Source: an uncultured archaeon | GTDB taxonomy: Archaea > Iainarchaeota > Iainarchaeia > Iainarchaeales > JAAZKV01 | Direction: 5' to 3' | Length of the DNA: 32,000 nucleotides | Assembly: GCA_964551375.1 (NCBI GenBank) | Contig: CAZKBG010000002.1 | Span: forward strand, 45,558-77,557 | Shown: piece by piece, positions 2,820 through 25,468 of the stretch | Layout of the letters: each line of letters begins with the position of its first letter | Numbering within the stretch: the stretch's first letter is position 1 | The notes under the pieces: model-generated | The model's database searches: none | Told to the model about the DNA's origin: nothing | The model's input: the letters and a program-made list of their open reading frames with translations, nothing else | Made by a program: the position numbers and the translations under genes

Positions 2820-5123
2820 TTATTCGTCTTTATCCTTCTTTTCAGGCTTTTCTTTTTGAAGCCTTGGAATCATAGTGGTTGAAATCCAATTCTTCCACTG
2901 CCCAAGAAGCTGGTCATAATTAATTTTGCCGTCCTCTTCAATCATAGTTTCTTTCATCAAAAGAAGCTTGTTGTTGCAAAGACTTGTGTGCTCCGCTTCA
3001 AGAAGACTTTTTAAATTAAGAGAATTTTTCTGCTCAACGAGGAATAGTTTTGCATTCGCCCTCAATCTGATTTCAGCCCAAATATCGCTCACAGTAAGCC
3101 CGCTTGTTTTCTGAATCTTTTGTAATAATTCGCTTTCTTTTAAATTATCTTCCATTAATTCAAGAGAATCTTTTGCGGCGTCAAAACTCATAAGCGCAAG
3201 CAGTCCGCCTTCAACTGAAGGGTCAGTATTCCAGTGCTTTTTAATTTCAGTAATTTCAACAACTCTTCTCTGTCTTCCAAGGCTTCCCTTAAACCTAATG
3301 GGTCTAGCAACAACAATCAAATCAGTCGCCTTAAATGAAGTTGTTGGAACTCCTAAATCGTTAACAACACGGTCCCAAACAGAATAAGCTGAATCAGCGT
3401 GAATTGTTCCAAGAACTACATTTCCCGCAGCTCCAACACGCATTGCTTCATACAAAACTTTTGCTTCCTTTGATCTTACTTCCCCGATAACAAGAGCAGA
3501 ATCACCTAAACGAAGAGCGGTACGAAGAGCTTCTGCAGGGTCAACTTCAGTTTCAGTTTTTGAAACACTAATCGGACTTCTTGTTTTAAGTCTTTGAATG
3601 TTAAATCCAATATCCTTCATATAAGGAACAGGAATTTCAAGAGTGTCTTCCTGAACAATAATTCTTGAGTTCTGAGGAATTTCAAGCATCATTGCCTGAA
3701 GAAGAGAAGTTTTTCCCGAGCCTCTTGAGCCCGCAATAAGAGTAGTCGCCTGCATATCAATAAAGAAGCTAATCATTCCTGCTGCAAGCGGATTAATGTA
3801 ACTCACATCAATAAACTGCTCAAGCGTCCAAGGCGTCATTTTATGCAATCTAAACGCAAAACCATAACTTGAAGGAGTAAGAGGAGGGCCGATTAACGCA
3901 ACTCTTGTTTCAAGGTCCGCCAAATCATAATCAAGAACAGGATGCGCTTCATCAAAAGGCCTTGAAGACATCGCTCTTAATTTTGAAATCAAACTATTTG
4001 CCTCAAATTCAGTGAAAGTAATATTTGTCTGGCACTGTCCGTACTCAGAATGAACAATATAAATTGGGCGCGAGCCAATCGGTGAGTCAATGTAAATATC
4101 GGTAATTCTTCTGTCGTTTAATAAAATTTCTAAAATACCATATCCAACAGTGTATCTTGCAACAACTTTTGAAAGAGAGGACATGTCATCAGGAGTAATT
4201 GCAATTCCGCTCCTTGCTGCAATTTCTTTTATTGTTGATTCGTACAAACGCTCAAAGTATCTTCTTGAAGTCGCAACAGTGCTTAAGGAAGTTCTTCCCG
4301 GCTTGTATGCTGAAACAACTTCCCTTGTTCTGCTCAAAACAAAATACTGGTCAGGCGCAAGCGAATACTCGGGCGGATTTATGTAATAAAGTTTCTCAAC
4401 TTTATTCGGGTCCGCAAAAACCTGAACGCTTGATTCTTTCACAGGATACTCGTCAAGAAGCTCAAAGTTTTCAATCCCTGAAAAAGAAAGTTTTGAGCCG
4501 ATAAAGCTTGGCTTAATATCAGCTTCAAAAAGCGCTTTGTAAATAATGCTTGTTTCAGGAACTTGCTGTAATTCAGTAAGAAGTTTTTTTGCTCTTATTA
4601 CAAGAAGAAGCGCGTCAAATCTGTTTCTTAAATCAACAAGAGTTGCGACATACGGTTCGGTGCACTGGATATACCCTGCTCCTGCCTGCTTTAATTTTTC
4701 TTCCTCTTTTCTTAATTCCTGAATTAAGCTAAGATATGCAAGAAGCGGATCATAATTAATCAAATCGCTTGCAATCCTTACTACCATCTGGTGGCGCTCT
4801 GAAAAAAAAGCCTCGCAGTCCTTTCCTGCCCTTCCAAGATGCCCAAAACTCCAAACACTCTCAACGCTTAATTTCTGCGCGAAGTTAGCCACTTCCATCA
4901 GCATTTTTGTCTGGACATCCTCGTAAACTCTCTCATACTTTTCGCTAAATACAATCTTGTCAGCTTCAACTTCCTGCAAAACTTTTATCACGTGGAAACG
5001 GCAGTGATGGTCTTCCCCGATTGAAGCGCTGTAAATACAGTTTTTACAGTCAAAAATAAGCGCACGCTTGCCGCCAATGTCTTTAACAACAAAGTCTCCA
5101 ACCTTGTATCCGCCAATCTTCAT
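2820..5123 (-). CDS. Type II/IV secretion system / archaeal type IV pilus-archaellum family ATPase (FlaI/PilB/GspE-like), unusually long at 767 aa
   Basis: Walker A GSRGSGKTS (aa 465-473, nt 3705-3731). Asp box RIIVQEDTLEIP. Walker B DSALVIGEVR. His box LGTIHADSA. An upstream N-domain motif RITDIYIDSPIGSRPIYIVHSEYGQCQTNITF is typical of FlaI-type ATPases. GGTGA (complement of 5130-5134) lies 6 nt upstream of the ATG. Confidence 0.9.
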   Translation of the reverse strand: MKIGGYKVGDFVVKDIGGKRALIFDCKNCIYSASIGEDHHCRFHVIKVLQEVEADKIVFSEKYERVYEDVQTKMLMEVANFAQKLSVESVWSFGHLGRAGKDCEAFFSERHQMVVRIASDLINYDPLLAYLSLIQELRKEEEKLKQAGAGYIQCTEPYVATLVDLRNRFDALLLVIRAKKLLTELQQVPETSIIYKALFEADIKPSFIGSKLSFSGIENFELLDEYPVKESSVQVFADPNKVEKLYYINPPEYSLAPDQYFVLSRTREVVSAYKPGRTSLSTVATSRRYFERLYESTIKEIAARSGIAITPDDMSSLSKVVARYTVGYGILEILLNDRRITDIYIDSPIGSRPIYIVHSEYGQCQTNITFTEFEANSLISKLRAMSSRPFDEAHPVLDYDLADLETRVALIGPPLTPSSYGFAFRLHKMTPWTLEQFIDVSYINPLAAGMISFFIDMQATTLIAGSRGSGKTSLLQAMMLEIPQNSRIIVQEDTLEIPVPYMKDIGFNIQRLKTRSPISVSKTETEVDPAEALRTALRLGDSALVIGEVRSKEAKVLYEAMRVGAAGNVVLGTIHADSAYSVWDRVVNDLGVPTTSFKATDLIVVARPIRFKGSLGRQRRVVEITEIKKHWNTDPSVEGGLLALMSFDAAKDSLELMEDNLKESELLQKIQKTSGLTVSDIWAEIRLRANAKLFLVEQKNSLNLKSLLEAEHTSLCNNKLLLMKETMIEEDGKINYDQLLGQWKNWISTTMIPRLQKEKPEKKDKDE

Positions 5124-5276: not shown

Positions 5277-5918
5277 ATGAGCATAAAGAAAAAAACCGCC
5301 AAACTTTCGCAAAAAAAAAGCGGGGCAGGGTTCATTCTTGACTATTTTAAAGAACAGCACAAAAAAATCAGAACCGACAAAAAGAAACAGTTTGTTTTCT
5401 TTGTTTTGGGATTTGTGCTTTCATACCTGATTCTTACAGTTTTAGTGAGCATAGTTCCTGATATTTACTATAAAGAAGCAGTTGGGGGAATGGTTAGAGG
5501 AGCGCTTGGAGCGCAAGGGATAAACACCACTTCAGTTGGCAATGTTGAATGCATGGAATTTTCATGGCTGAGCGACACTGCAAAAGGAAGCTGCTATTCA
5601 TTCACCGCAGAGGGAAAGAATATTGTAATTTCCTGGCTCTGCACGGGGATTTTAGAAATAATAATACTAATATGCGCAATAATTGCAAGCTTTGGAGTAA
5701 AATGGAAAGAAAAAGCTGTCGGGATTATAGCCGCAATAATTCTTGGAATAGTTTTTAACATTTTAAGAATAGGGATAACAATAAATCTCATCTTTTCGCA
5801 GGATGTTGCAACTGTTGAAATAGCCCATGATGCTTTATTTAGAATAATTTTGTTTGTTTACATAGCAGTCGTTTATATTATTTGGTTTTATTGGGCTGCG
5901 AACAAAAGCGAACGATAA
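5277..5918 (+). CDS. Short exosortase/archaeosortase-family membrane protein (213 aa)
   Basis: Polytopic membrane protein. The family signature triad appears in the expected order and context: Cys122 in ISWLCTGILEI (the C-S/T-G motif), Arg164 in FNILRIG (the N-x-x-R motif) and His184 in EIAHDALF. The Cys-Arg spacing is 42 residues, as I recall it for characterised archaeosortase A. Lys-rich cytoplasmic N-terminus. Confidence 0.65.
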   Translation: MSIKKKTAKLSQKKSGAGFILDYFKEQHKKIRTDKKKQFVFFVLGFVLSYLILTVLVSIVPDIYYKEAVGGMVRGALGAQGINTTSVGNVECMEFSWLSDTAKGSCYSFTAEGKNIVISWLCTGILEIIILICAIIASFGVKWKEKAVGIIAAIILGIVFNILRIGITINLIFSQDVATVEIAHDALFRIILFVYIAVVYIIWFYWAANKSER

Positions 5919-6006: not shown

Positions 6007-9000
6007 TTGATTTCAGAAAAGCTTGCGGGGTTTTACACAAAGCTTGAAGACAAATATTTTGATGTGCTTGACGCGCTTGACAAAAAAGGCATACCAGTTT
6101 ATGCTTATTCTGATTTTTTTGAAAATAAAGGAATACCAAGCTTTGTTGTGACAATAGCAATAATAGTCGCAATAATCGCAATTGTAACGCTTGCTCTAAC
6201 TTATCAAGGCGCTGATGTCGGCGAATTAACTTTATCATTAAAAGACAGCGACGGACAAAGCCTAAATGATGTTTCACTTGTAATAAAAGACGCAAAAGGA
6301 GAAGTGCTTTTTGAAGGAAGCGCAAGCGACGGAGAAACGATAAAATTAAACCGTGCGCTCTTTAACGGCGAAGAAATATCAATAACCGCCGAGGTGGAAG
6401 GATACCAGCCAAAAACAATCGCATTCACAGTCGGCGAAGAAAATAATGTTCCCAAATTATCATTTGACCCTTATTTTGAAGGAATTGAAGCTGCAGTAAG
6501 AGTAATTGATTCTGAAGGCTCAACTCCAGTATATGACGCAACAGTGCTTGCAAATTCAAGAGCAAATTTAAGCTACCAGTTTGTTTCAGACCAGAACGGA
6601 ATTTACAAAAAAAGCGGAGTTCCTGCCGGAGTAGATTTACTTCTAAAAATAACAGCAGAAGGATATGACAATTACGAGCAGACAGTTTCATTTAGAGCGG
6701 GCGAAGTAAGAGAAGTAATGCTTACTCCTTCAAATAATGGACTTGCGGCAGAAGTAAATATTGCAATTGATGTCTCAGGACCAGATGGCAAATCAATTGA
6801 CCAGGCAAAAGTAACTGTGTACGACAAAAGAAATTCAACAGTTCTATTTAGCAGCTACACAACAGACGGAACAGTGGTTGCAAAATTACTTTCAGGAGTT
6901 CCGCTAAGAATTGTTGTTGAAAAACAAGGGTACTTAACTTATGATTCTGATGTAGACGGCGGAGGAGTAACTGTACGAACTGACGGATTAAGATTCCCAG
7001 TTAAACTAAGACTTGGGGGGCAGAAATTACACGTAACTGTGCTTGATTCACAGTCAGCATTCGGCGTTGAAGGCGCAACAGTTCAATTGTTTAGAGAAAC
7101 AGGAGAATTAATTTCAAGCCAGGTTTCAAAAGTTTCAGGAGCTGAATTTAGCGGAATTGATTCAAATTTAACAATTTACGTTACAGCATACAGAGACGGA
7201 TACCTTCCCACAAGAGAGAAAGTAAGAGTAAGCATCACTGAAGAAGTAAAAATACTGCTCAATAAAGTAACTTCAAATAATTCAACAAGACTTGACATTT
7301 ACACGCTTGACAAGCTTGGAAAAACAGTTAACGGCGTAAAAATTTTAATAATTGATATTAACGGCTCGGAAAAAGTGCCTTATGGAATTCCAGAAATTGA
7401 AACAAGCGTTGCGGGATACGTTAATGCGACAGTTGCAATCGGAAAAACATACTCTGTAAAAGGATACACTGATGTTCTTGACGGAGCAATTGATGTTGAA
7501 GTAAAACAGGGCGAAATAGAAAAGAAAGTTTACTTAAAAATGCTGAAAAAATCAAACGTTTTAGAAATGAAATTCATTGACGTGTTTGGAAAAAATGTAA
7601 AAGGCAAATCCACAATATCAGGGCTTGACGGGACAATATTATTTGACGGACCGATTTTAGAAGGAAGCATATTCTTTGACGCGCAGCAAAAAGACGTAGT
7701 TGAAGTAATGGTTACAAAAGATGACGGAAATGTATTCACTGAAAATGTCACAGTAAAAGGAAAAGACTATGTTGAAGTAATGGTGTATTCAAAAGACTCC
7801 GCAGCTCTTTCTCCAACAATTGAATTTATTGGAATTGAAGACGAAAGTGGAAACGTAGCTGATGGAATAATTCCAGGCGCATTCTTCTGGGCAAAATTTA
7901 ATGTAACATTCCCAAGGTCAGCAACAAAAGGCGGAGTTCACTTTAGAGTAGGGCAGGACGATGTTGAATTTGTTGAATCAGAAAAATTTGCGTTATATGA
8001 TTTAAGCATGCAAAATGCGACAGTTGATTACTCTTTATCCTATACTCCTTTGCCAGCCCCAGGAAACGAAATAGTTGACAGGGCGAATAAAGGAACTCAA
8101 GGAAGCAAAAACAAGTGGATTGAAGGAGTTGTAAGCCAGCCCCAAGGAACATACACTGCAAAAATTAAAGTAAGAGCTGAAGACTTTTTAGCGGGAAAAG
8201 CAGAGTTAAAATTCAGAGCATGGGCAATAGTTGGCTCGGATTATTACAGAATGCCCCAAGACGCAGATCTTTTATCAAAAGGATACAGCGATAAAAAAGC
8301 GGCATTATACGCGCTGACAAGCACTCAATCAGTTACAATTTACGAATCCCTTCCTGAATGCGCGGATAATTTATGCATGGCAGTTAATTTTGTTGACGAA
8401 GACGAACAATTCCTAAATGAAAAAGGATTTGAAGCATGGAAAGGAAAACAATACGCAATTGAAATTGAATTATCAGCAAAAGAACAGGAATATGCGCAAG
8501 TTACAGTAACAACTGATGCCAATATTGATTTTAGCTCCTCGCAGACAACCAATTTTGGATTTGTAAAAAGAGGAGAGCAGATTGGGCAAGTAAAGAAAAC
8601 AGCAGCAGCTGCAGTGACAATAGCTAAAGGCGGAAAACAGAAAGTAAGATTCTACTTCACAGCAAACAAAGTAGGCGCGGCTTCAATTAATGTAAGCGCA
8701 ATAGGAAAATCAACAGTAGTAAAAGATGTTTTATTTAACGTAGTGGAAGAAAAATCACTTCTTATAGAATTATCAGAAAATCAGGTAATGGCAGGAAGAA
8801 ACTTTACAGTAAGAGTGACTGACTCGGGACTTAAAGGAGTAGAAAATGCTCTTGTAAAAATAATTGACAGCGAAGGAAAAACCGCAAAAAGCATTCTTGG
8901 CGACGGAACTGACGGAAAAGGAAAAAACGGATACTATAGAATACAAAATAATTTAGGAGTGGGCCTTTACACTGTTGAAGTATCACTAACAGGATATGCT

Positions 9001-14995: not shown

Positions 14996-15029
14996 AGAAT
15001 TGATTTGATTGTCAAGTTTAGTTGATTTT

Positions 15030-16496
15030 ATGATATATCCAAAAATTAGCCAGAGAGGATTTAACATGTTCTCCGCAATAGTTGCGGTTCTACTAATCAT
15101 GGCTGGAGTGGTAATAACAAACACGCTAATTTCAACCGAAGAAAAAACAAATCGGCAAGTTTACTCAATGCTGAATAATTATCAATTAACCGATGCCGCC
15201 GCAGTTGCAAGAGCAGATGCGCTTCAGAACTTTAATTATGCATTTAGAGTGCAGATGGAAAATTATCTTACTTACGACAAATATGAAATGGGAGAATATG
15301 CTGATGATGAAACAAGCGGACTTGGATTATTTACTATAACCACTGGAAGCGAAGCTTTCACATTCACTGAAATGAAAGCAGCATTTGAACAATCGGTTCT
15401 GCAAAAATCAGGCCCGGGGGACTTTAATTCAGTGCTTGAATACGTTGCGGGAAACACGGTTAATCAATTTCAGGAAAGAACATACGGAAGATTCAGCGTT
15501 TACTTAAGCGAACGATCCGAAGACAGAGCGGGAGCGCAGGCAAAAGTAAAAGATGTATTATACGCGGCAACTGCTCCTCATATGAATAACTTATTTGATG
15601 TAGTTGAATGCGGAGAGAACGAATGCAAGAATGGCTCATTTTATTTTAACATTCCATTAAACGAAATATCTGACTCGCAGTACGAATCACTGCCAAGAAT
15701 TGTAGTAAAAGACCTTGTTACTCATGAAGAAATAAAAATGCCAATCCTTCCAAGAACAAATATTAGAATTTACATGCCGCTGCGATTTTTCAAAGCAATA
15801 TTTGAAGCAAGAAAATTTGCAATTATAATGAGAGCGCAGCATAATGCACTTCAAAGCTACCGGCTTGGATTCTGCGATCCTGGATGCGCTCCAAGAACAC
15901 ATCCAGTGAATGCCTCAACTGGCTCTTATGGAAAGAACTGCCCCCAGACTGATTCAGGGGATGCTTCAACAGTAGCATTATCAGCAGCTCCGCTTGGAAT
16001 AACTCAATACCAAGCAGGGGGAACAAATGCTGGCTCGCTTGGACTTAAAGCCCACGCTACTGAACTCTTATGTTCCTATGCTGGCGGAATCTTTGACACC
16101 ACTGACACCACGTTCATGCCTTTTTCTAATTCACTAAAAGCAAAGGACCCCCAAATGGTTGATGTGGCAAACTGCCCCATTCATGCAATTACTGTGGAAC
16201 TTCCTAATGCAAAACCTATGTTTGAAATGACAGGGCTTACAATTTCCTACGCTGATGGGCTTGAAAAATATTTAAGATGCGGATGGATAATGGGAATCAC
16301 TTCACAAGTTGTTTTTAAAGAGACAAATCCGCTTTACATTGTTAGAGGAACATATGATCAGGGAAAAGTTGACTTATTTAAAATACAAATAAAGGATGTG
16401 GCTTTCCCTGCGCAGTGGAGCGCGGACGGAACTTACCCTACTCCGACAGCAAAATGCAAAGCAACAGGAAGCGCATGCGAGACATACACCTCTTAA
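15030..16496 (+). CDS. Large secreted protein with a class III (type IV pilin-like) signal peptide (488 aa from ATG 15030; the track ORF starts at TTG 15009)
   Basis: The N-terminus is MIYPKISQRG/FNMFSAIVAVLLIMAGVVITNTLIS. It has a short basic leader, Gly at the putative -1 position and then an uninterrupted ~22-residue hydrophobic helix, as in archaeal prepilins. The rest is Cys-containing and hydrophilic with no recognisable motif. Confidence 0.6.
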   Translation: MIYPKISQRGFNMFSAIVAVLLIMAGVVITNTLISTEEKTNRQVYSMLNNYQLTDAAAVARADALQNFNYAFRVQMENYLTYDKYEMGEYADDETSGLGLFTITTGSEAFTFTEMKAAFEQSVLQKSGPGDFNSVLEYVAGNTVNQFQERTYGRFSVYLSERSEDRAGAQAKVKDVLYAATAPHMNNLFDVVECGENECKNGSFYFNIPLNEISDSQYESLPRIVVKDLVTHEEIKMPILPRTNIRIYMPLRFFKAIFEARKFAIIMRAQHNALQSYRLGFCDPGCAPRTHPVNASTGSYGKNCPQTDSGDASTVALSAAPLGITQYQAGGTNAGSLGLKAHATELLCSYAGGIFDTTDTTFMPFSNSLKAKDPQMVDVANCPIHAITVELPNAKPMFEMTGLTISYADGLEKYLRCGWIMGITSQVVFKETNPLYIVRGTYDQGKVDLFKIQIKDVAFPAQWSADGTYPTPTAKCKATGSACETYTS

Positions 16497-16640
16497 GCGC
16501 AAAATCAGTATTTTTTGAATTAAGAAAATGATTTTTCGCCAATAGATGCGTGTTAATCGCCATCAAGATAAGATTAATAAAGGGAAGAATGATATAATTA
16601 TTATAGTGAATAAGTTTTATTCAACTTATAAGTGATGAAA

Positions 16641-19600
16641 ATGGGTATTGGGGACTCTCTAAGAGACGCTTATTATTCGCTCGAAGACAAATGGTACTCT
16701 TTCATTGACGGAGTTTCTGAAAAAGTTCCCGCTGTGGGCAGTTTTGTTGACGCCCTTGAAGACAAAGGCATACCAAGTTTCCCTGCTTTTATATTATTAA
16801 TAATAATAATAGTGGCTCTATTGGCATTTTTCTTTTTATCATCATCACAAGCAACACTTACAATCAAAATCACTGACGACACAGGAACCGGAGTGGAAGG
16901 AGCAAGCGTAATAGTGCTCCAAGATGACGTTGAAATCGCAAATGTTACCACAAAAGAGAACGGACTTGCGGTATTTTTGCTTCCAAGAGGCGAATACAGC
17001 TTAAAAGTTGACAAAGAAAATTATTCTACTTCTACAAAATCAATAACGCTTGACGGCGACAAGGAAGAAGATTTGACACTAAGCCTTGAAGACACTACAA
17101 TTACAAAAGCTGTTTACTTAAAAACCGCTAACGGCGAACTTGTGAGCGGAAGCGGAACAGTAATTTACAGATGCAGAGGAGACACTGGAGATCAGACAGC
17201 GACTTATGCAAGCGGGAAGTTTGACGCGACAGTAAAAAAATCCTGTGCAGCAGTTGAAGTTATTACAATACAAAATTATAATTTAGTAGAGCCAATCGCA
17301 TCATTCTCTGGAAATTCAGCGGTAACAGTTGAACAAATAGTTGTATTGACTGGGAGAGTTACAGTTTCATTATCAATCGCAGGCTCAACAGATCTGCCTC
17401 CTGCGGGCGTAAGAGTACAGCTTGTTCCAAATGATAACACAACTTCAATAAGCGCAATAACACAAGGGGGCGCAGTAGTTGTATTTGAAGAAGTTCCTGT
17501 AAAAAGTTATTATGTTCTTGTAACAGACCCAAACGGAGCATTCTCTGTTTTTGACGGCTCAAAATTAAACGAGACAAAAAATGTTTTAAAAGGTGAAACA
17601 ACTCAATTCACAGCAGCGCTTGCAAGAGTGCAGGCGACAAAAATTATAGTTAATGTAAAAGACTCAGCAACAGGGCTTCCTGTAAAAGGAGCTGAAATAA
17701 AACTAACTTCCGCAGCAAACACAAATGATGTTTTAACAAAAATAACAGGCGCATTAGGGCAGGGCGAATTTTCAGTAGCGCAAGGCTCAAACTATGTTGT
17801 TACAGTTGACCATCCTGACTATGTTTCAGGAAAAACAATGCCCGCAGCTGCAGGCGAAACAATCAACTTCCAAGTGGAAAAGGTTGACTCATCAAACAGC
17901 AACACTTTAACAGTGCAGGTAGTTGACTCAAAAGACAAACCTGTTGATTATGCAAGAGTGGTACTGAAGAAAATTGAAGCAAACGAGCCAATTGTCGGAG
18001 AAAAAATTACAGGGGCAAGCGGAGAAGCGCAGTTCTTCAACCTTGAAGTAGGAAAATCATACATTGCGTCAATTTCAAAAGAAGGATTTGGAAGCCAGAC
18101 TTCGCCAAGCGTGCAAATAGAGCCAAAATCTGGAAAAACAGTAAAAGTAACATTTGATATTGGATACGGAAAAGTTTTAGTAAAAGTTCTTGACCCTGAA
18201 AAAGCAGTTCTTGCAGGAATCAGCGTAAAAGCATTTAATTCACTAACAACAAAGCAGGAAGGAGAAGCACTATTAACAGGAAGCGACGGAATTGCGGAGT
18301 TCTCTGAAATCAGAGCGGATAAGAAAGTATTCTTTATAATTGAATCAAGCGCTTACGCAAAATATTTCACAGCAACAGTGCAGCCAACTGCAAATGCAGA
18401 GCTTGGAAAAGAAGTAGTGCTAATGAGACCAACTGGAAAACTGCTTGCTGAGCCAGTAATAATATTTAGCGGAACAGAAGAAATGAAAAACGGCGCAGGA
18501 AGCGAAGTTGGAGTAAGCCAGGGAATTTACACTCTAAAAGCAATACTGCAGGTTCCAAAAGGACAATTCAGCGAAGCAGGAATGCATATTAGAACAGGAA
18601 AACAAACTCAAAATTTGACTAACAATTTAGAAGAAGACGGACTTTACATTTCAACAATAGAAGCATCAGGAAGAATAACAAAAGGAACCTCTTACACTCC
18701 GCCAACTGGATATGATATTGACTCAAAGAACACCACACAAGGCAATGCAAAATGGGCAAATATAGTGTGGAAAAACCCTGCTGAAGGAACTTACGAAGTA
18801 GAAGCTGAAGTAAGCGTAACAGAAACAAACCCAAATGTGCCTCTTGAATTATTCTACAGAGGATGGGCTAAAGGAAGCGCAACACTAAGAGACCCTGCAA
18901 GCAACGTAGCAGGAAATGAATTATACTCAATTGCAAAAAGAAAAATACTTTCAGTTGGCTCGGCAAGCATGTGCACAGCAAGCTTCTGCAAAAGTTATAT
19001 TCTAACTCCATTAACAGGCTCTGAAGCAGGAAGAGCAAGAATAGTAAGCGGAACAGTAGAAGCAAAGAAAGGAGTAACTTACTCACTAACAGCAGATTTG
19101 ACTAATTACAGCGGAAAAACAATTTCAGGAGCCGCACTAAGCGTTGAAGGAAAAAGCGTTGATATTAATTCAATTACAATTAATGATGTTCCTCAAACTG
19201 ATTTAGCAAGCTCAATAAATCTTGGAAACATCGGAGCGGATTCGCCAGTAAAAATAGTTGTTACATTCACAACAAAAACAAGCGGAAGTTCAGGAGTAAG
19301 ATTCATAATTAACTCCTCAACAAAGAACGAGTTTGACGAACTGATTGCAATTAATGTTAAAGTAAACAAAAAATTCCTGCTTTCAATTGTTCCAAAAATA
19401 ATTATCCCTTACATTAACAACACAATGTTCTTTGAAGCAACTGATGGAAATAACTCACTAAGCGGAGTATTAATCCAAATCAAAAACGGAAAGAACACGC
19501 TTGGAAAAGTTGAAACAAGCGGAGAAGGACTTGCAACTTACGAACTTAGCGAGCCAAAACTTGACGATGAAATAACATTTATCGCAAGCAAAGAAGGATA

Positions 19601-22600
19601 TGACAATGTTGAAGTTACAAAGAAAGTTGACGCTGCGCTACTAACAATAACTCCTCAATCAATATCTGAAACAATCAAAATAGGGGATGTTACTGGACTA
19701 ACTACAACAGTAATAATGCAAAATAACACTTCAAAAAATGTGAGACTTGGAAGCGTTCAAATAAACGGGGACATGAAAACTTATATTGACGCAAAATTCA
19801 TTGAAACATTAGCAGGAACAATAATCGAACAGGGAAAAGACAAAAACTTCACTTTATCACTAAAATTAAACTCAAGCGCAATTAAACTAAAAGCTCCAAA
19901 AGACTTGACTGGAACTGTGGTAATAAACACTGAAATACCAGGGACAAGCGCAGGATACTTAAACGAAATACCAATCTCAATAAGACTTTCAATGCCAGGG
20001 TACATGGATGACGCAAAATGCCTCAAAGTTACTCCTGCAACAATTGACTTTATTACAAGCGATACTGAAGAAAGCAAAACAGTAGTGCTGTCAAATTTAT
20101 GCACAGCAGAAGACTTCCAAATCCCGCTTCACGATATATCAGCTAAACTAAATGAAGCAATGAAAGTTGGAACAATAAGCGTAAACGGCTCTGGATTTGC
20201 GACAGTAAACCTTGGCGATAAATATGTGAAAATCGCAGACAGCCTTGAAAAAGATTCTGAAACAGAACTAACAATAAGATTCTCTCCAAATTCAGCAGTA
20301 TCAAGCGGAAAACAAACTGTTACTGTAACAATAATGGGAAAGAATATACTTGACGACAAAACTGAAGAAAAAGTTGAAACAACCCTAAAAGTTAATTCAA
20401 CAATGAACAGCCTTTCAAAATGCATTGAAATAGTAGAGCCATCAGGCGGAATACTGCTTGATATTGCTCCATGGAACTTAGGATACAACAGAATCCAGCA
20501 GTCAAACATGTCAGCATACGCTGGCGGGTACCAAGGATTCACAAATAGAAGCGCTCCATACAATATGTCTTACATGGGCGGAATGGGGATGATGGGATAC
20601 GGAACTAACGGATACGGTTCAGCATACGGCGGATTTAACTCATACGGAATGTACCCAGGAAGCGTAGCAGGCGGCGGAATGCAAAACATGAGCTACCAGC
20701 AGAATTCATTTATAATAAAGAACAACTGCCAGACAGATGTTGATATAGACCTTGACCCAGATTCAAGAGTTACAGTATCAACTGACAAATTCACACTATC
20801 TGCAAACAGCGACGAAACAGTTACAGTTGATCCGGGATACGTTCTTGGAAAATACAAAATAAAAATAAACGCAAAGCCAAAAGGAACAACAACTTCAATG
20901 AAAAACCTAAAAGAAGTTTCAGTGACAATAAGAAGACTTGGGGATATGGACACTGACTGCATTAAAACAAATGTAACAACAATTAACCTAAATTCATTCT
21001 TATACAGGCCTCAGAAATACTCTGTTTTCAATTACTGCTATGATACAGGAGCTGCATTATCAAGAAGCAATGTTGCATCAATTGAATGCTCGGCTCCGCA
21101 GAACAACAGTCTTGGATTAAATTACTTCCAGCAGGGACAAGAATCATACTACGGCTCAAGCTACCCTCTAAATGGACAGAATGCAACTTACAACAGTTAT
21201 ATCCAGCCAAGCGGATGCCAGACAAACTCATGCTCATTAATTACAGGAACAAGAGTAAGACAAAGAACTACTGAACAGGGGACAACAGGAACAATAGAAA
21301 GAGTAGACTTTGATGTAATGCCAAGCTCGCAATACATACCGCAGCAGAAATTATTTGACAATAAAGTCGGAAAATACGGAGCATTCCAAAACCTTAGCGC
21401 AATAAGATCATGGGCTACTGAAACCGACGCAAGAACTAATGTTTACGGAAATTTAAATATCAGCTACACAAACCAATACGGTTCGGCTGAATGCATGGAA
21501 TTCCCAATCACAATCACTGATGTTTGGAGAATGGGAGAAAGCATAGATTCGGCAATCAACTGGGGAGACCCAACAGCAAGGCCAAAAGACTGCCAAGAAG
21601 CTGACGCGCTGAATATTACTAAATACTGGGAGAATAAAACTCCAAATAAAGACGGAGTAGTTCCTGACAGCGGAGACGGATTTAATGCACAGGATAGATA
21701 TGTTTACATGGCAGAACCGCCAGCGCTAAAAATCGGACCATCGCCGACTCAAAACAGCATGAGTTACCCTTCATCTTACGGAAACAACATGTATGCATAC
21801 ATGAATCCTCAATACGGAATGTACAACAACCAGCAGGGCGCTCAATACTATAGTTCAGGAAATGAATCTTATATGAGAGGACAGCCAGCAAATAACGGGA
21901 ATTCTGGAAGCGCAACAAAGAACTGCGGACTTCTTGACGGAATTGATGTCAAAACTGTAATCAATCCAAAAGATGCAGGCGGAGCAAAAGTAACAGTAAC
22001 TGACAGAGGAACAGGAAGCATAATCAACAACTCAAGAGGCTCAAACTTAATGGTGGAAATTGACAGAAGCACAATGACAGTTAACTGTGTGCACTTAAAC
22101 ATTCCAATTACAGCAAAAGTAACAAGATCAATCAACTTTGAATCACAGGACTTGACATGGTTCCTTGATGTAAAATTCGCAAAGAAAGGAATACCTTACA
22201 ACGAAGCAGAATGCATGAAGACAACAACAAGCACAGTGACAGACTGCAAAGATGCATTAAGAAGCATACTTCTAAAGAACAACACAAAACAAAACGATGC
22301 TGCAGGAATTGAAGCTGCAATTAAAGAGCTTTTAGACAAGCGACCAGAATGCAGGCAATATGTTGATGTGTCAGTTGCAAATACTATTTTAGGGCAGATT
22401 GCTCAAGATACAAACTTAGGAAAAGGATGCGCTTTATCTCCTGCTGAATTCGGACACACTTTAATAAAAAGCACAAAGTCAACTCCTGCTGACACAGTTG
22501 ACTGCACACAATACTTCTGCAGCGGAGAAATGCTGAATTTATTCTTGTTAAAGAAATTCTCTGAGGCAAGAACCATGTTGAACAATGAATTATCCGATTT

Positions 22601-24397: not shown

Positions 24398-25468
24398 GTG
24401 GATAATAGAGTGCTGACATTTGTACTAATAAGCATAATTGCATTCTTGTCAGGCTTTGCCGCTTCATACCTCTTTCCAATTCAAACTCCTTTTGTTGATG
24501 TTCCATTCAGCGTTCTTGCAATAGGATTAATCCTTGGAGGGGCCGCTTTTTTTGGATATCTTGGCTTTATTCCAGCACTTCTTTTGGGACTCCAGCTGGG
24601 CGCGGAAAAAAACGCGGCAGTATTCATTTACATTGCGCCTGTAATACTTGCAATTTATGCGGGAACTTATATTGGAGTTTTAATAAACAAAGATTTTGAA
24701 AGAAAAGAAATATTTGCAAAAAAAGCAAAAAATATTATTGTAATAGTGGCAATCGCCCTTGTAATATCATTCGCGGTTGAAATGGCGGTGCCGTACACTG
24801 TAGAGTACTGGCCGAAGGATTATCTTGGGATGAGTGTGGGCGGAGGATATATGTCATATGATTCCGATTTGACAGGGGAAAATATTATTTTAAGGGGAGA
24901 TTCATTAACAATTCCAATTGAATTAAAACAAATAGTTGTTGGAAAGAACAATGCTTCCGTGTTTAACACTTCAACGAATGCGATTTTAAAAATAAAAGAC
25001 GCTGATGAAGGCACGCCAGTTTATGGGGCTGAAGTTACTGCCACAAGCCAGAGCGGAAATGAACATGAATTTATTGAAACTTCAAGCGGAATGTACAAAA
25101 AAGATCAGTTCCCATTCGGAGAACAAGTAACATTAATTGTAAAATCAAAAGGATACGAAGAGTACAATAAAAAAGTTACATTTAACCGCGATATTATAAA
25201 TGAAATCTCGCTTACTCCAGAACCTGTGGGCGAGGAAGCAGAATCAAGCGTTACAATAAGGGTATTTGGAAGCGATGGAAAGACAATAAACCAGGCAAAA
25301 GTAACTGTTTATAATAAAGAAACATCCGCAACACTCCAAATAGGATACACTCAAAACGGACAAATTACGCTTAAAGCAATGACTGGGACAAGACTGAGAA
25401 TAGTTGTTGAAAAAGGAAGCACAGCCGCAGGGCTTATTGGAAAACTTGCGAGCCTTAAAAGAAGATAA
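24398..25468 (+). CDS. Polytopic membrane protein (about 5 TM helices) with C-terminal extracellular beta-sandwich domains (356 aa)
   Basis: GTG start with a strong AGGTGA ribosome binding site. Hydrophobic helices in aa 1-135 include VLTFVLISIIAFLSGFAASYLF, VLAIGLILGGAAFFGYLGFIPALLLGLQLG, VFIYIAPVILAIYAGTYIGVLI and IIVIVAIALVISFAVEMAV. The C-terminal part has carboxypeptidase-regulatory-like modules. Residues 282-341 are about 50% identical, by hand alignment, to residues 249-308 of giant protein 1. Confidence 0.75.
   Translation: MDNRVLTFVLISIIAFLSGFAASYLFPIQTPFVDVPFSVLAIGLILGGAAFFGYLGFIPALLLGLQLGAEKNAAVFIYIAPVILAIYAGTYIGVLINKDFERKEIFAKKAKNIIVIVAIALVISFAVEMAVPYTVEYWPKDYLGMSVGGGYMSYDSDLTGENIILRGDSLTIPIELKQIVVGKNNASVFNTSTNAILKIKDADEGTPVYGAEVTATSQSGNEHEFIETSSGMYKKDQFPFGEQVTLIVKSKGYEEYNKKVTFNRDIINEISLTPEPVGEEAESSVTIRVFGSDGKTINQAKVTVYNKETSATLQIGYTQNGQITLKAMTGTRLRIVVEKGSTAAGLIGKLASLKRR

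What the first reader, a model, noticed from the sequence alone, without database searches (positions are those of the whole stretch)
6007..6204. Conserved N-terminal module shared by all three giant proteins, possibly a dedicated targeting or anchoring signal
The three giants begin with a homologous ~45-aa polar, aromatic-rich segment followed by a TM helix. The first beta-sandwich repeat follows immediately.
- Giant 1: ISEKLAGFYTKLEDKYFDVLDALDKKGIPVYAYSDFFENKGIPSF-TM (6007-6204).
- Giant 2: MGIGDSLRDAYYSLEDKWYSFIDGVSEKVPAVGSFVDALEDKGIPSF-TM (16641-16841).
- Giant 3: MGIGESLKGIYYSGEEKWYAFWDKVDAHIPVYKVIDPIDSVIPTF-TM (25644-25838).

The conserved core is Y-x-x-L/G-E-D/E-K-W/Y-Y/F-x-F/V-x-D ... 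IP(V/A) ... (G/V)IP(S/T)F.

This is not a Sec, Tat, lipoprotein or class III signal pattern. A cytoplasmic segment conserved this well before the anchor suggests recognition by a dedicated factor, for secretion, membrane insertion of very large cargo, or cytoplasmic tethering.
Basis: partly seen in the sequence, partly recalled or inferred. Interest (0 to 1): 0.65.

Follow-up and report, generated by a model that had tools for sequence, protein, structure and literature searches.

The report
Leader-anchor signal of DPANN giant proteins
The three giant proteins begin with a real, strongly conserved, undescribed N-terminal unit (a two-helix hairpin, an invariant IPSF motif and one membrane helix) that heads giant surface proteins in nearly all Iainarchaeota and part of a second DPANN phylum, always alongside a small archaeosortase-like enzyme and a pilus-type ATPase, so it is probably their dedicated sorting or docking signal.

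Summary
All three giants start with a homologous ~45-residue segment followed by one membrane helix.

- **Spread.** The genome holds six such giants. The module occurs in 206 of 215 genomes of the phylum (Iainarchaeota/Diapherotrites), including 58 of 58 high-quality ones. It also occurs in 50 of 401 sampled genomes of a second DPANN phylum whose records are titled Micrarchaeota. A profile search of 1.84 billion proteins gave 1125 clusters; in the 150 listed, the match lies at the N-terminus.
- **Shape.** AlphaFold2 (pLDDT 95.6) predicts two helices, a GIPS turn, the membrane helix and then the first beta-sandwich.
- **Motif.** [IV]-P-[ST]-[FL] abuts the helix with no spacer; the Pro is present in all 227 sequences.
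- **Not a known signal.** It fits no Sec, Tat, lipobox, class III, ESPR or KxYKxGKxW pattern, and no Pfam, NCBIfam or PDB entry.
- **Partners.** In the second phylum the archaeosortase-like gene is found in all 50 module-positive genomes and in none of the other 351, apart from two weak hits. The long ATPase is found in 49 of the 50. The gene order ATPase / archaeosortase-like / giant is conserved.

The module is most likely a dedicated sorting or docking signal. The mechanism is open, because the motif faces the cytoplasm while the enzyme's active site faces outward. A look-up of this scan's earlier notes with the giant 2 N-terminal sequence found no look-alike stretch on other DNA.

The parts
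6007..6144 (+). Giant 1 N-terminal cytoplasmic module (46 aa, ISEKL...KGIPSF), the subtype that always follows the archaeosortase-like gene
   Evidence: Orthologues are 59-94% identical in related genomes.
6145..6204 (+). Giant 1 single membrane helix, directly abutting IPSF
   Evidence: Hydropathy scan and family logo.
16641..16781 (+). Giant 2 N-terminal module (47 aa, MGIGD...KGIPSF): predicted helix 1, helix 2 and GIPS turn
   Evidence: AlphaFold2 pLDDT 95.6, with helices at 2-26 and 28-39 and a turn at 40-43.
16782..16841 (+). Giant 2 membrane helix; the first beta-sandwich starts 2-3 residues after it
25644..25778 (+). Giant 3 N-terminal module (45 aa, MGIGE...VIPTF)
25779..25838 (+). 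Giant 3 membrane helix
6007..14883 (+). Giant 1 (2958 aa), beta-sandwich-rich surface protein
   Evidence: It has 24 Cys (an even count) and a composition like secreted proteins.
16632..24212 (+). Giant 2 (2526 aa)
25644..32000 (+). Giant 3 (2757 aa in the genome; it runs off the window)
5277..5918 (+). Small (213 aa, 4 membrane helices) exosortase/archaeosortase-family protein, the most specific co-occurring partner. Cys122, Arg164 and His184 are invariant and predicted at the outer face of the membrane.
   Evidence: TIGR04178 scores 36.4 bits against a cut-off of 23. Invariant residues; co-occurrence and synteny.
2820..5123 (-). Long (767 aa) FlaI/GspE/CpaF-type secretion ATPase, divergently transcribed from the archaeosortase-like gene. 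It carries a ~300 aa N-terminal region with no known fold.
15009..16496 (+). 495-aa protein whose N-terminus (...QRGFNMFSAIVAVLLI...) looks by eye like a class III (prepilin-type) signal. It is conserved directly upstream of giant-2-type genes.
   Evidence: Homologues lie upstream of the module in 15 loci.
24398..25468 (+). 356-aa membrane protein, hydrophobic in its first ~130 residues, whose beta-sandwich part is ~40% identical to the first domains of giant 1

Best explanation
The segment is the N-terminal 'leader-anchor' of a family of giant archaeal surface proteins.

**Anatomy.** It consists of a cytoplasmic hairpin of two helices (~40 residues; the first helix is amphipathic with an aromatic face). 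An invariant [IV]-P-[ST]-[FL] motif then abuts a single membrane helix with no spacer. A short Gly/Ser/Ala/Pro spacer of variable length leads into the first extracellular beta-sandwich. The N-terminus is inside the cell and the giant body is outside.

**Proposed function.** I read it as a family-defining sorting or docking signal that ties these giants to machinery inherited with them:
- a small archaeosortase-like membrane enzyme, encoded directly upstream and found only where the module is found;
- a pilus-type (FlaI/GspE-like) ATPase, transcribed divergently from that enzyme.

The likeliest arrangement has two parts. The IPSF-plus-helix element would be recognised within the membrane by the archaeosortase-like protein. 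The cytoplasmic hairpin would serve as a handle for a cytoplasmic partner, most plausibly the ATPase. The known precedent is the way secretion ATPases of this family dock on the cytoplasmic N-domain of single-pass proteins such as GspL.

**Shown:** the anatomy, the conservation, the distribution, the co-occurrence and the synteny. **Inferred:** the topology. **Hypothesis:** who binds the module, and whether it is cut off.
For: **Family hallmark.**
- Six giants in the genome carry the module.
- It occurs in 206 of 215 genomes of the phylum and 58 of 58 high-quality ones.
- It occurs in 50 of 401 sampled genomes of a second phylum.
- It matches 1125 representative clusters among 1.84 billion proteins. 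In all 150 listed the match lies within the first ~125 residues (starting at residue 1-36 in most), and the 77 of those that are >=1200 aa have a median length of 2455 aa.

**Selective constraint on the module itself.**
- Paralogs are 42-56% identical in the module, against 22-24% or no detectable similarity in their bodies.
- Giant 5 shares little beyond the module with the others.

**Structure.**
- The AlphaFold2 model has pLDDT 95.6, with helices at 2-26 and 28-39, a turn at 40-43, the membrane helix at 44-65 and strands from 68.
- The first helix is amphipathic, with a hydrophobic moment of 0.40-0.50.

**Motif.**
- Pro is at 100%, Ser/Thr at 96% and Phe/Leu at 97%, directly abutting the helix.
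- Motifs that abut the helix without a spacer are the pattern seen in signals read by membrane-embedded sorting enzymes (Haft preprint 10.1101/2023.06.07.544157).

**Partners.**
- The archaeosortase-like gene is present in 50 of 50 module-positive genomes. It gave only 2 weak hits in 351 module-negative ones.
- It is found in 55 of 58 high-quality genomes of the own phylum.
- It lies directly upstream of giant-1-type genes in 13 loci.
- The ATPase N-domain is found in 49 of the 50.
- The head-to-head ATPase / archaeosortase-like / giant order persists even in reduced, divergent lineages (G198:C82 and G200:C50).

**Topology.**
- Lys+Arg average 1.4 in the 15 residues before the helix and 0.5 after it.
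- The bodies contain only domain types known from extracellular proteins.
- All six giants have an even number of Cys, and their composition resembles secreted proteins.

**Not driven by size.** Other secreted proteins of 1200-1994 aa in the same genome use ordinary signal peptides.
Against: - No direct evidence of binding or processing exists.
- The active-site Cys, Arg and His of the archaeosortase-like protein are predicted at the outer face of the membrane. This follows from its very basic N-tail and its KWKEK loop being inside. The invariant IPSF lies at the inner face, so classic exosortase-style cleavage at the motif does not fit.
- The outer end of the helix carries no conserved motif.
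- The ATPase is not specific to the system. Its closest relatives in module-negative genomes sit in ordinary operons of ATPase, polytopic membrane protein and pilin-like genes. This genome keeps such a membrane protein plus pilin-like genes elsewhere, at C1:79097-86525. The ATPase may therefore be linked for regulatory reasons only.
- The co-occurrence counts are not phylogenetically independent. The 50 positive genomes may form one clade, and no kinship information was available for them.
Confidence: 0.55

Rival explanations
1. It is a plain permanent signal-anchor. In this reading the hairpin and IPSF are conserved for structural reasons. They could act as an interfacial 'fluke' that fixes topology and resists extraction of a giant ectodomain under load. 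Alternatively they could act as a cytoplasmic bundling domain that joins the 4-6 paralogous giants into one complex. The neighbouring enzyme and ATPase would then serve other steps of the same surface structure.
For: - The first helix is amphipathic and aromatic, which suits the membrane interface.
- There are several paralogs per genome, typically 4-6.
- No conserved cleavage motif is present.
- The ATPase has its own candidate platform protein encoded elsewhere.
Against: - The Pro of IPSF is invariant, Ser/Thr and Phe/Leu are 96-97% conserved, and the hairpin positions are nearly invariant across two phyla. That is more than anchoring needs.
- Other large anchored or secreted proteins in the genome do without the module.
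- It co-occurs strictly, and sits adjacent, with one specific archaeosortase paralog.
- Reduced lineages keep the module with only 1-3 giants, so bundling many paralogs is not required.
Confidence: 0.2
2. It is an extended, cleavable Sec signal peptide. This would be an archaeal analogue of the ESPR extension of autotransporters, or of KxYKxGKxW signals, that paces or routes export of very large proteins and is removed by signal peptidase I.
For: - It is an N-terminal conserved extension before a hydrophobic core on very large surface proteins.
- Small residues follow the helix, for example SQA|T, ATA|T and QGA|D in the window's giants.
- The spacer after the helix is rich in Gly, Ser, Ala and Pro.
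Against: - The hydrophobic stretch is ~20-22 residues, the length of a membrane span rather than an h-region.
- The n-region is 45 residues, net acidic and folded.
- There is no fixed -3/-1 register across the family.
- There is no match to ESPR or KxYKxGKxW models.
- Secreted proteins of up to 1994 aa in the same genome use ordinary signal peptides, so size does not demand it.
- If cleaved, the giants would have no visible anchor.
Confidence: 0.12
3. It is a true archaeosortase substrate signal placed at the N-terminus. The small archaeosortase-like enzyme would cut at or near IPSF, or at the outer spacer, releasing or re-linking the giant.
For: - The module's strictest co-occurring partner and immediate upstream neighbour is an exosortase-family protein with an intact Cys/Arg/His triad.
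- The motif abuts the helix, as in PEP-CTERM and PGF-CTERM signals.
- The genome's other archaeosortase paralog has its own C-terminal signals that also begin with [IV]P ([IV]PD[NS][NG] plus helix plus basic tail).
- Giant 2's IPSF-helix gives weak, non-significant hits to the Loki-CTERM and PEF-CTERM models (E 1.4 and 6).
- ArtA can process a signal that is not at the C-terminus (review PMC6098224).
Against: - The orientation is reversed relative to every known signal of this family: IPSF is predicted inside and the active site outside.
- No Arg cluster follows the helix; the flank after it averages 0.5 Lys+Arg.
- The outer boundary has no conserved motif.
- A sortase-type acyl-enzyme would retain the anchor, not the giant.
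- An N-out topology would put beta-sandwich giants with even Cys counts in the cytoplasm.
Confidence: 0.08
4. It is an over-long class III (prepilin-type) leader. A prepilin peptidase would cut at the cytoplasmic face before IPSF, and the pilus ATPase would then assemble the giants through their N-terminal helix, as in pili or the Sulfolobus bindosome.
For: - The topology is the same as that of prepilins.
- A pilus-type ATPase, and a 495-aa protein with an N-terminus that looks like a class III signal, lie in the locus.
- A subset of modules reads [KR]-G before IPSF.
- A protein with a GxGDxK motif, as in prepilin peptidases, exists elsewhere in the genome (C1:697030).
Against: - The residue before IPSF is Gly in only 36% of members; it is Val in 29% and Asn in 21%.
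- The leader is 45 residues and folded, against 3-30 residues in known cases.
- No peptidase gene is linked to the locus.
- The giants' helices show no pilin-like conservation.
Confidence: 0.05

Closest known systems
PGF-CTERM/archaeosortase A and PEP-CTERM/exosortase sorting systems (Haft 2006, 2012; review PMC6098224; preprint 10.1101/2023.06.07.544157)
   Same: - A short invariant motif abuts a membrane helix with no spacer.
- It marks a set of surface proteins.
- It co-occurs strictly with, and lies next to, an exosortase-family enzyme that keeps the Cys/Arg/His triad.
   Different: - The signal is at the N-terminus, not the C-terminus.
- The motif is on the cytoplasmic side, with a 40-residue folded hairpin in front of it.
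- No Arg cluster follows the helix.
- The orientation in the membrane is reversed, so the known cleave-and-lipidate chemistry cannot simply be transferred.
Class III (prepilin-type) signal peptides with type IV pilus machinery, including the Sulfolobus bindosome (Bas) system for large non-pilin surface proteins
   Same: - The topology is N-in/C-out, with a cytoplasmic leader directly before the helix.
- A FlaI/GspE-type ATPase and a protein with a class-III-like N-terminus lie in the locus.
- Large globular cargo sits on an N-terminal helix.
   Different: - The leader is 45 residues and folded.
- The cleavage-site rule ([KR][GAS] at -2/-1) is not met across the family.
- No A24 peptidase or platform gene lies in the locus.
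Extended signal peptides of very large bacterial surface proteins: ESPR of type V secretion (PF13018) and KxYKxGKxW of the accessory Sec system (TIGR03715)
   Same: - They are conserved N-terminal extensions in front of the hydrophobic core on giant adhesin-like proteins.
- KxYKxGKxW also routes its proteins to a dedicated ATPase-driven pathway.
   Different: - There is no sequence relationship.
- The module is acidic and helical rather than short and basic.
- Its hydrophobic core has the length of a membrane span.
- Its partners are an archaeosortase homologue and a pilus-type ATPase, not SecA2/Y2.
GspL/EpsL-type single-pass proteins that dock the secretion ATPase GspE/EpsE through an N-terminal cytoplasmic domain (from my own knowledge of type II secretion)
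   Same: - These are N-in single-pass membrane proteins.
- Their cytoplasmic N-terminal part is the binding site for the N-domain of an ATPase of the same superfamily.
   Different: - GspL's cytoplasmic domain is a ~250-residue actin-like fold, not a 40-residue hairpin.
- Binding is not shown here.
SPEARE and other giant surface proteins of DPANN archaea
   Same: They are giant proteins of small-genome archaea thought to mediate cell contact.
   Different: This is a different phylum, and no shared N-terminal module was detected.

Membership tests
Sec (class I) signal peptide | Short, positively charged n-region | tested here: not met
   The region before the helix is ~45 residues, predicted as two helices, with on average 5.2 Lys+Arg against 7.7 Asp+Glu.
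Sec (class I) signal peptide | h-region of about 7-15 residues followed by an A-x-A type cleavage site | tested here: inconclusive
   The hydrophobic stretch is ~20-22 residues, the length of a membrane span. Small residues follow it, but with no conserved register.
Tat signal peptide | Twin-arginine motif before the h-region | tested here: not met
   No Arg-Arg appears at any position of the family logo.
Lipoprotein signal (lipobox) | Invariant Cys at +1 after the h-region | tested here: not met
   No Cys-enriched column follows the helix.
Class III (prepilin-type) signal | Short leader ending in [KR]-[GAS] directly before the hydrophobic helix | tested here: not met
   The leader is 45 residues. 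The residue before IPSF is Gly 36%, Val 29%, Asn 21% and Ile 8%.
Class III (prepilin-type) signal | N-in/C-out topology with the globular part outside | tested here: met
   Lys+Arg average 1.4 before the helix and 0.5 after it; the bodies contain extracellular-type domains; Cys counts are even. This is an inference from sequence, not an experiment.
Exosortase/archaeosortase tripartite sorting signal | Signature motif abutting a membrane helix | tested here: met
   [IV]P[ST][FL] is directly followed by the helix in 227 of 227 sequences.
Exosortase/archaeosortase tripartite sorting signal | Located at or near the C-terminus, with the motif on the outer side | tested here: not met
   In the 150 listed representatives the match lies within the first ~125 residues. 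The motif is predicted on the cytoplasmic side.
Exosortase/archaeosortase tripartite sorting signal | Arg/Lys cluster after the helix | tested here: not met
   The 15 residues after the helix hold 0.5 Lys+Arg on average.
Exosortase/archaeosortase tripartite sorting signal | Co-occurrence with, and proximity to, a cognate exosortase-family gene | tested here: met
   50 of 50 against 2 weak hits in 351 in the second phylum; 55 of 58 high-quality genomes in the own phylum; adjacent in 13 loci.
ESPR (PF13018) / KxYKxGKxW (TIGR03715) extended signal peptides | Match to the family model | tested here: not met
   No hit even at E <= 10 in Pfam or NCBIfam.
Exosortase/archaeosortase family (for the gene at 5277-5918) | Signature model above cut-off and an invariant Cys/Arg/His triad | tested here: met
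   TIGR04178 scores 36.4 bits against a cut-off of 23. C122, R164 and H184 are invariant in 9 diverse homologues. No named subfamily model reaches its cut-off.
FlaI/GspE/CpaF secretion ATPases (for the gene at 2820-5123) | T2SSE domain above cut-off and similarity to solved members | tested here: met
   PF00437 scores 67.3 bits against 24.9. PDB matches: 2OAP E 2e-32, FlaI 4II7 E 4e-24, CpaF E 5e-23. Residues 1-~290 match nothing.

The most novel reading that the evidence does not exclude
The module is the first N-terminal, cytoplasm-facing sorting signal read by an exosortase/archaeosortase-family enzyme together with a type IV pilus-type motor. That would define a new pathway for inserting, processing or assembling giant surface proteins. 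The pathway would be universal in Iainarchaeota and present in part of Micrarchaeota, and it probably builds the cell-contact surface of these small-genome archaea.
Probability: 0.3. Interest if true: 0.9.

Novelty: new variant of a known kind. Interest (0 to 1): 0.72.

Why it matters
Dedicated sorting signals such as LPXTG, PEP-CTERM, PGF-CTERM and class III leaders have each led to the discovery of a surface-assembly pathway. This is a sharply defined, easily searchable signal for an uncultured group whose biology is thought to depend on cell-surface contact.

- It marks the five largest proteins of this genome and a sixth giant (about 4% of its coding capacity).
- It links them to an archaeosortase homologue that has no visible C-terminal substrates, and to a pilus-type ATPase.
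- It gives a handle for cataloguing these giants in metagenomes.
- It raises a mechanistic question for the exosortase family: can a member act on, or bind, a reversed N-terminal anchor?
- It makes the surface apparatus of Iainarchaeota and Micrarchaeota testable, through complex prediction, N-terminal proteomics and heterologous topology assays.

Tried and rejected
**Searches that found nothing**
- The module gave no significant hit in Pfam, NCBIfam or PDB sequences, even at E <= 10.
- A scan of viral contigs found no relative.
- Four full-text literature searches found no description of the module or the system.
- I recalled that Sakai et al. 2022 (PMC8784108) described a conserved giant-protein cluster. 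Checking the text showed this was wrong.
- A look-up of this scan's earlier notes with the first ~140 residues of giant 2 found nothing.

**Structure work on the ATPase**
- The AlphaFold2 model of residues 1-335 has a confident helical bundle at 69-200 (pLDDT above 90).
- Residues 202-287 score pLDDT below 50 for most of the stretch, although many of their positions are invariant.
- Foldseek against the PDB gave no match at E <= 0.001, so the fold gave no clue to function.

**Ideas considered and dropped**
- *A conserved motif at the outer end of the helix, as a possible archaeosortase site.* None was found.
- *An N-out topology, which would fit the archaeosortase geometry.* Rejected on charge bias, domain types, even Cys counts and composition.
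- *An extension driven by protein size.* Rejected because proteins of 1200-1994 aa in the same genome use ordinary signals.
- *An ATPase N-domain specific to the module system.* Rejected because orthologues at ~25% (N-domain) and 36% (full length) identity occur in ordinary pilus operons of module-negative genomes.

- Multimer prediction could not be run; the structure tool takes single chains of the window's own sequences only.
Full report
**1. Observation**

The window has a one-sided gene order:
- three collagen-repeat genes at 580-2782;
- a 767-aa secretion ATPase on the minus strand at 2820-5123;
- a 213-aa exosortase/archaeosortase-family gene at 5277-5918;
- giant 1 at 6007-14883 (2958 aa);
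- a 495-aa protein at 15009-16496 whose N-terminus (...QRGFNMFSAIVAVLLI...) looks by eye like a class III signal;
- giant 2 at 16632/16641-24212 (2526 aa);
- a 356-aa membrane protein at 24398-25468;
- giant 3 from 25644, which runs past the window end.

They are 36-39% identical over the first ~70 residues. Each has one strongly hydrophobic segment, at residues ~46-66, and no C-terminal anchor.

A profile built from only these three N-termini finds three more giants in the same 1.09-Mb genome at E 8e-23 to 5e-18. Each hit lies at the start of an 1843-2554 aa frame.

**2. Distribution**

Record titles of related loci name the organisms Candidatus Iainarchaeum or Diapherotrites, as do source names for ATPase homologues.

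- *Own phylum.* A six-sequence profile finds the module in 206 of 215 species genomes. That includes 58 of 58 genomes that are at least 90% complete, and 75 of 79 genera. Copy number is 1-9, commonly 4-6. Uninterrupted frames are mostly 1300-3000 aa.
- *Second phylum.* Five loci titled Micrarchaeota or 'archaeon' lie in genomes outside this phylum. In an even sample of 401 genomes of the phylum that holds one of them (G215), 50 carry the module, with 1-7 copies each.
- *All proteins.* A 72-sequence profile (A3) searched against 1.84 billion representative proteins gives 1125 hits at E <= 1e-3, of which 840 are at E <= 1e-10. In all 150 listed the match lies within the first ~125 residues, starting at residue 1-36 in most. 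Seventy-seven of them are at least 1200 aa (median 2455, maximum 3075). The short ones look like truncated gene calls.
- *Viruses.* No relative was found in viral contigs.
- *Databases and literature.* Pfam, NCBIfam and PDB sequences give nothing for the module. Four literature searches found no description.

**3. Anatomy**

AlphaFold2 was run on the first 150 residues of giant 2 with a 54-sequence alignment. It gives pLDDT 95.6:
- helix 2-26;
- helix 28-39;
- a four-residue turn, GIPS, at 40-43;
- the membrane helix at 44-65;
- beta strands from residue 68.

The first helix is amphipathic with an aromatic/hydrophobic face, and its hydrophobic moment is 0.40-0.50.

A position-specific count over 227 non-identical members, anchored on the motif, shows the following:
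- [IV] at 89%, Pro at 100%, [ST] at 96% and [FL] at 97%, immediately followed by the hydrophobic stretch;
- a median of 27 uncharged residues after the motif, which is ~20-22 of helix plus a spacer rich in Gly, Ser, Ala and Pro;
- no Arg-Arg, no Cys and no fixed A-x-A;
- Gly 36%, Val 29% and Asn 21% at the residue before the motif.

Tyr, Glu, Lys and Asp of helix 1 are invariant in 72 diverse sequences. Aligned on the first beta strand, the outer end of the helix shows no conserved motif.

**4. Topology**

Lys+Arg average 1.4 in the 15 residues before the helix and 0.5 in the 15 after it. The bodies match only families known from extracellular proteins: CarboxypepD_reg, SpaA, PEGA, SdrD_B and macroglobulin MG domains.

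All six giants have even Cys counts (24, 28, 28, 20, 26 and 18). Their Thr+Ser+Asn content is 22-24% and their Lys+Arg content 9-10%. Those values resemble secreted proteins of this genome, not its cytoplasmic ones.

I therefore take the module to be cytoplasmic and the giants to be outside. This is an inference from sequence.

**5. The module is under its own constraint and is not a by-product of size or recent duplication**

Among the six paralogs the module is 42-56% identical. The bodies are 22-24% identical over the aligned parts, or not detectably related. Giant 5 shares little beyond the module with the others.

The C-terminal region shared by giants 3, 4 and 6 also occurs in two 1743-aa proteins with different N-termini.

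Other secreted proteins of 1200-1994 aa in the same genome use ordinary signal peptides.

**6. Partners**

*The archaeosortase-like gene (5277-5918).* It passes the exosortase/archaeosortase signature model, TIGR04178, at 36.4 bits against a cut-off of 23. No named subfamily model reaches its cut-off. Cys122, Arg164 and His184 are invariant in nine homologues from both phyla.
- In fetched loci it lies directly upstream of giant-1-type genes in 13 cases. The ATPase lies divergently upstream of it in 7.
- In the 401 genomes of the second phylum a profile of it hits all 50 module-positive genomes: 49 at E <= 1e-21 and one fragment. Elsewhere it gives only two weak hits, near E 1e-6.
- In the own phylum it is found at E <= 1e-15 in 172 of 215 genomes and in 55 of 58 high-quality ones.
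- The misses include a reduced, divergent lineage. There a shortened version that still carries Cys, Arg and His sits between the ATPase and a giant (G198:C82 and G200:C50).

*The ATPase.* Its N-region (residues 1-281) is found at E <= 1e-31 in 49 of the 50 module-positive genomes. It is often head-to-head with the archaeosortase-like gene; compare the coordinates for G542, G370, G265 and G438. Within the phylum this region is 50-80% identical, and several homologues carry inteins.

*The ATPase is not specific to the system.* Module-negative genomes G489 and G604 have its closest relatives, at 36% identity over the full length. There it sits in an ordinary operon with a 703-aa polytopic membrane protein and, in G604 at least, small pilin-like genes. 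This genome keeps a homologue of that membrane protein elsewhere (812 aa, C1:79097). It is followed by about seven pilin-like genes, and no ATPase gene is apparent nearby.

My reading is that the motor gene of a pilus-type system has been separated from its platform and pilins in module-bearing genomes, and now sits head-to-head with the archaeosortase-like gene and the giants. This is an inference from gene order.

**7. Mechanism**

By the co-occurrence-plus-neighbourhood logic that identified earlier sorting enzymes, the small archaeosortase-like protein is the cognate partner of the module. The invariant motif abutting the helix also looks like a signal read by a membrane-embedded enzyme.

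The geometry, however, is reversed. The enzyme has a very basic N-tail (13 Lys/Arg in 38 residues), a KWKEK loop and a basic C-tail. These place Cys122, Arg164 and His184 at the outer face. IPSF is at the inner face, and the outer boundary of the giants' helix is not conserved.

The model I commit to has two parts:
- The IPSF-plus-helix element is recognised laterally in the membrane by the archaeosortase-like protein. Whether that protein also cuts in the loose outer spacer is open.
- The cytoplasmic hairpin is a docking handle for a cytoplasmic partner, most plausibly the co-located ATPase. Secretion ATPases of this superfamily dock on the cytoplasmic N-domains of single-pass proteins such as GspL in the same way (from established knowledge of type II secretion).

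One point favours a cytoplasmic partner other than the enzyme's own N-tail. In the reduced lineage the enzyme's N-terminal part is not conserved, while the module and the ATPase N-region are.

Confidence in this model is about 0.55. The rivals are set out separately with their odds: a plain structural anchor or bundling domain, an extended cleavable Sec signal, a true reversed archaeosortase substrate, and an over-long prepilin leader.

**8. Dead ends**

The ATPase N-region model has a confident helical bundle at 69-200. Residues 202-287 are poorly predicted for most of the stretch although many positions there are invariant. Foldseek against the PDB gives nothing at E <= 0.001.

**9. Comparison and novelty**

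The system works most like the motif-plus-helix sorting signals of the sortase and exosortase world, and like prepilin leaders. It fails defining features of each (see the membership table). I file it as a new variant of a known kind, namely dedicated sorting signals. Within that kind it is the first N-terminal, cytoplasm-facing one linked to an exosortase-family protein.

A look-up of this scan's earlier notes with the giant 2 N-terminal sequence found no look-alike stretch on other DNA. Earlier notes on this genome had described the giants, the enzyme and the ATPase separately.

**10. Caveats**

- Genome counts are not phylogenetically independent, and no kinship was reported for the second phylum's genomes.
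- Topology, retention or cleavage, and all interactions are unproven.
- The taxon names come from record titles.

Noticed in passing
Genome contig C1:832092-832640 (-), outside the window; candidate substrates at C1:261632-265279, 416080-417273 (-), 396559-399600 (-) and 835956-839408 (-): A second archaeosortase paralog is present (182 aa; best model archaeosortase D at 53 bits, below its cut-off). Four surface proteins end in [IV]PD[NS][NG] plus a membrane helix plus a basic tail. They look like an undescribed C-terminal sorting signal for that paralog, and one lies about 3 kb from it.
   Followed up: partly
Homologues of the ATPase at window 2820-5123 (-), e.g. P0177, P0185, P0189 and P0217: About ten of the 120 listed homologues are ~1270-1290 aa and carry intein/homing-endonuclease domains (PF14528, PF14890). 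The ATPase N-region is 50-80% identical across the phylum, unusually conserved for a surface-system gene.
   Followed up: no
Window 4260-4520 (-), ATPase residues ~202-287: Many positions here are invariant across 38 homologues (IKPSFIGS..., NPPEYSL.PD.YFVLSKT.E.V..Y.PG), yet AlphaFold2 gives pLDDT below 50 for most of the stretch. It may fold only on a partner. It contains an invariant Pro and Phe in a PSF motif (Ser ≥90%), like the giants' IPSF, which may be coincidence.
   Followed up: no
Genome contig C1:79097-86525, outside the window: An 812-aa polytopic membrane protein (no Pfam hit) is followed by about seven small pilin-like genes, with no ATPase gene apparent nearby. In module-negative relatives (G489, G604) its homologue lies directly after the orthologue of the window's ATPase. 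The pilus operon therefore appears split in this genome.
   Followed up: partly
Window 24398-25468 (+): The beta-sandwich part of this 356-aa membrane protein (residues ~195-339) is ~40% identical to the first domains of giant 1 and its orthologues. It looks like a small membrane-bound copy of the giant's base.
   Followed up: no
Genome contigs C2:31846-37077 and C1:200096-205327, outside the window: Two 1743-aa proteins share the C-terminal region of giants 3, 4 and 6 but have other N-termini. One (MDLFGSSEGLNDSFDDAGDKFSGFVEGIKKNPLP followed by a membrane helix) could be a degenerate one-helix version of the module.
   Followed up: no
Loci L047, L049, L082, L096 and L100: Contigs carrying the module are deposited in bins titled Chloroflexota/Chloroflexi, Falkowbacteria, Saccharibacteria and Thaumarchaeota. 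These are most likely mis-binned DPANN contigs.
   Followed up: no
Genome contig C1:813373-815061, directly after giant 5: A 562-aa secreted protein with a C-terminal membrane anchor and basic tail follows the module-bearing giant 5. The same pattern (giants followed by a small anchored partner) was noted elsewhere in this genome by an earlier finding.
   Followed up: no
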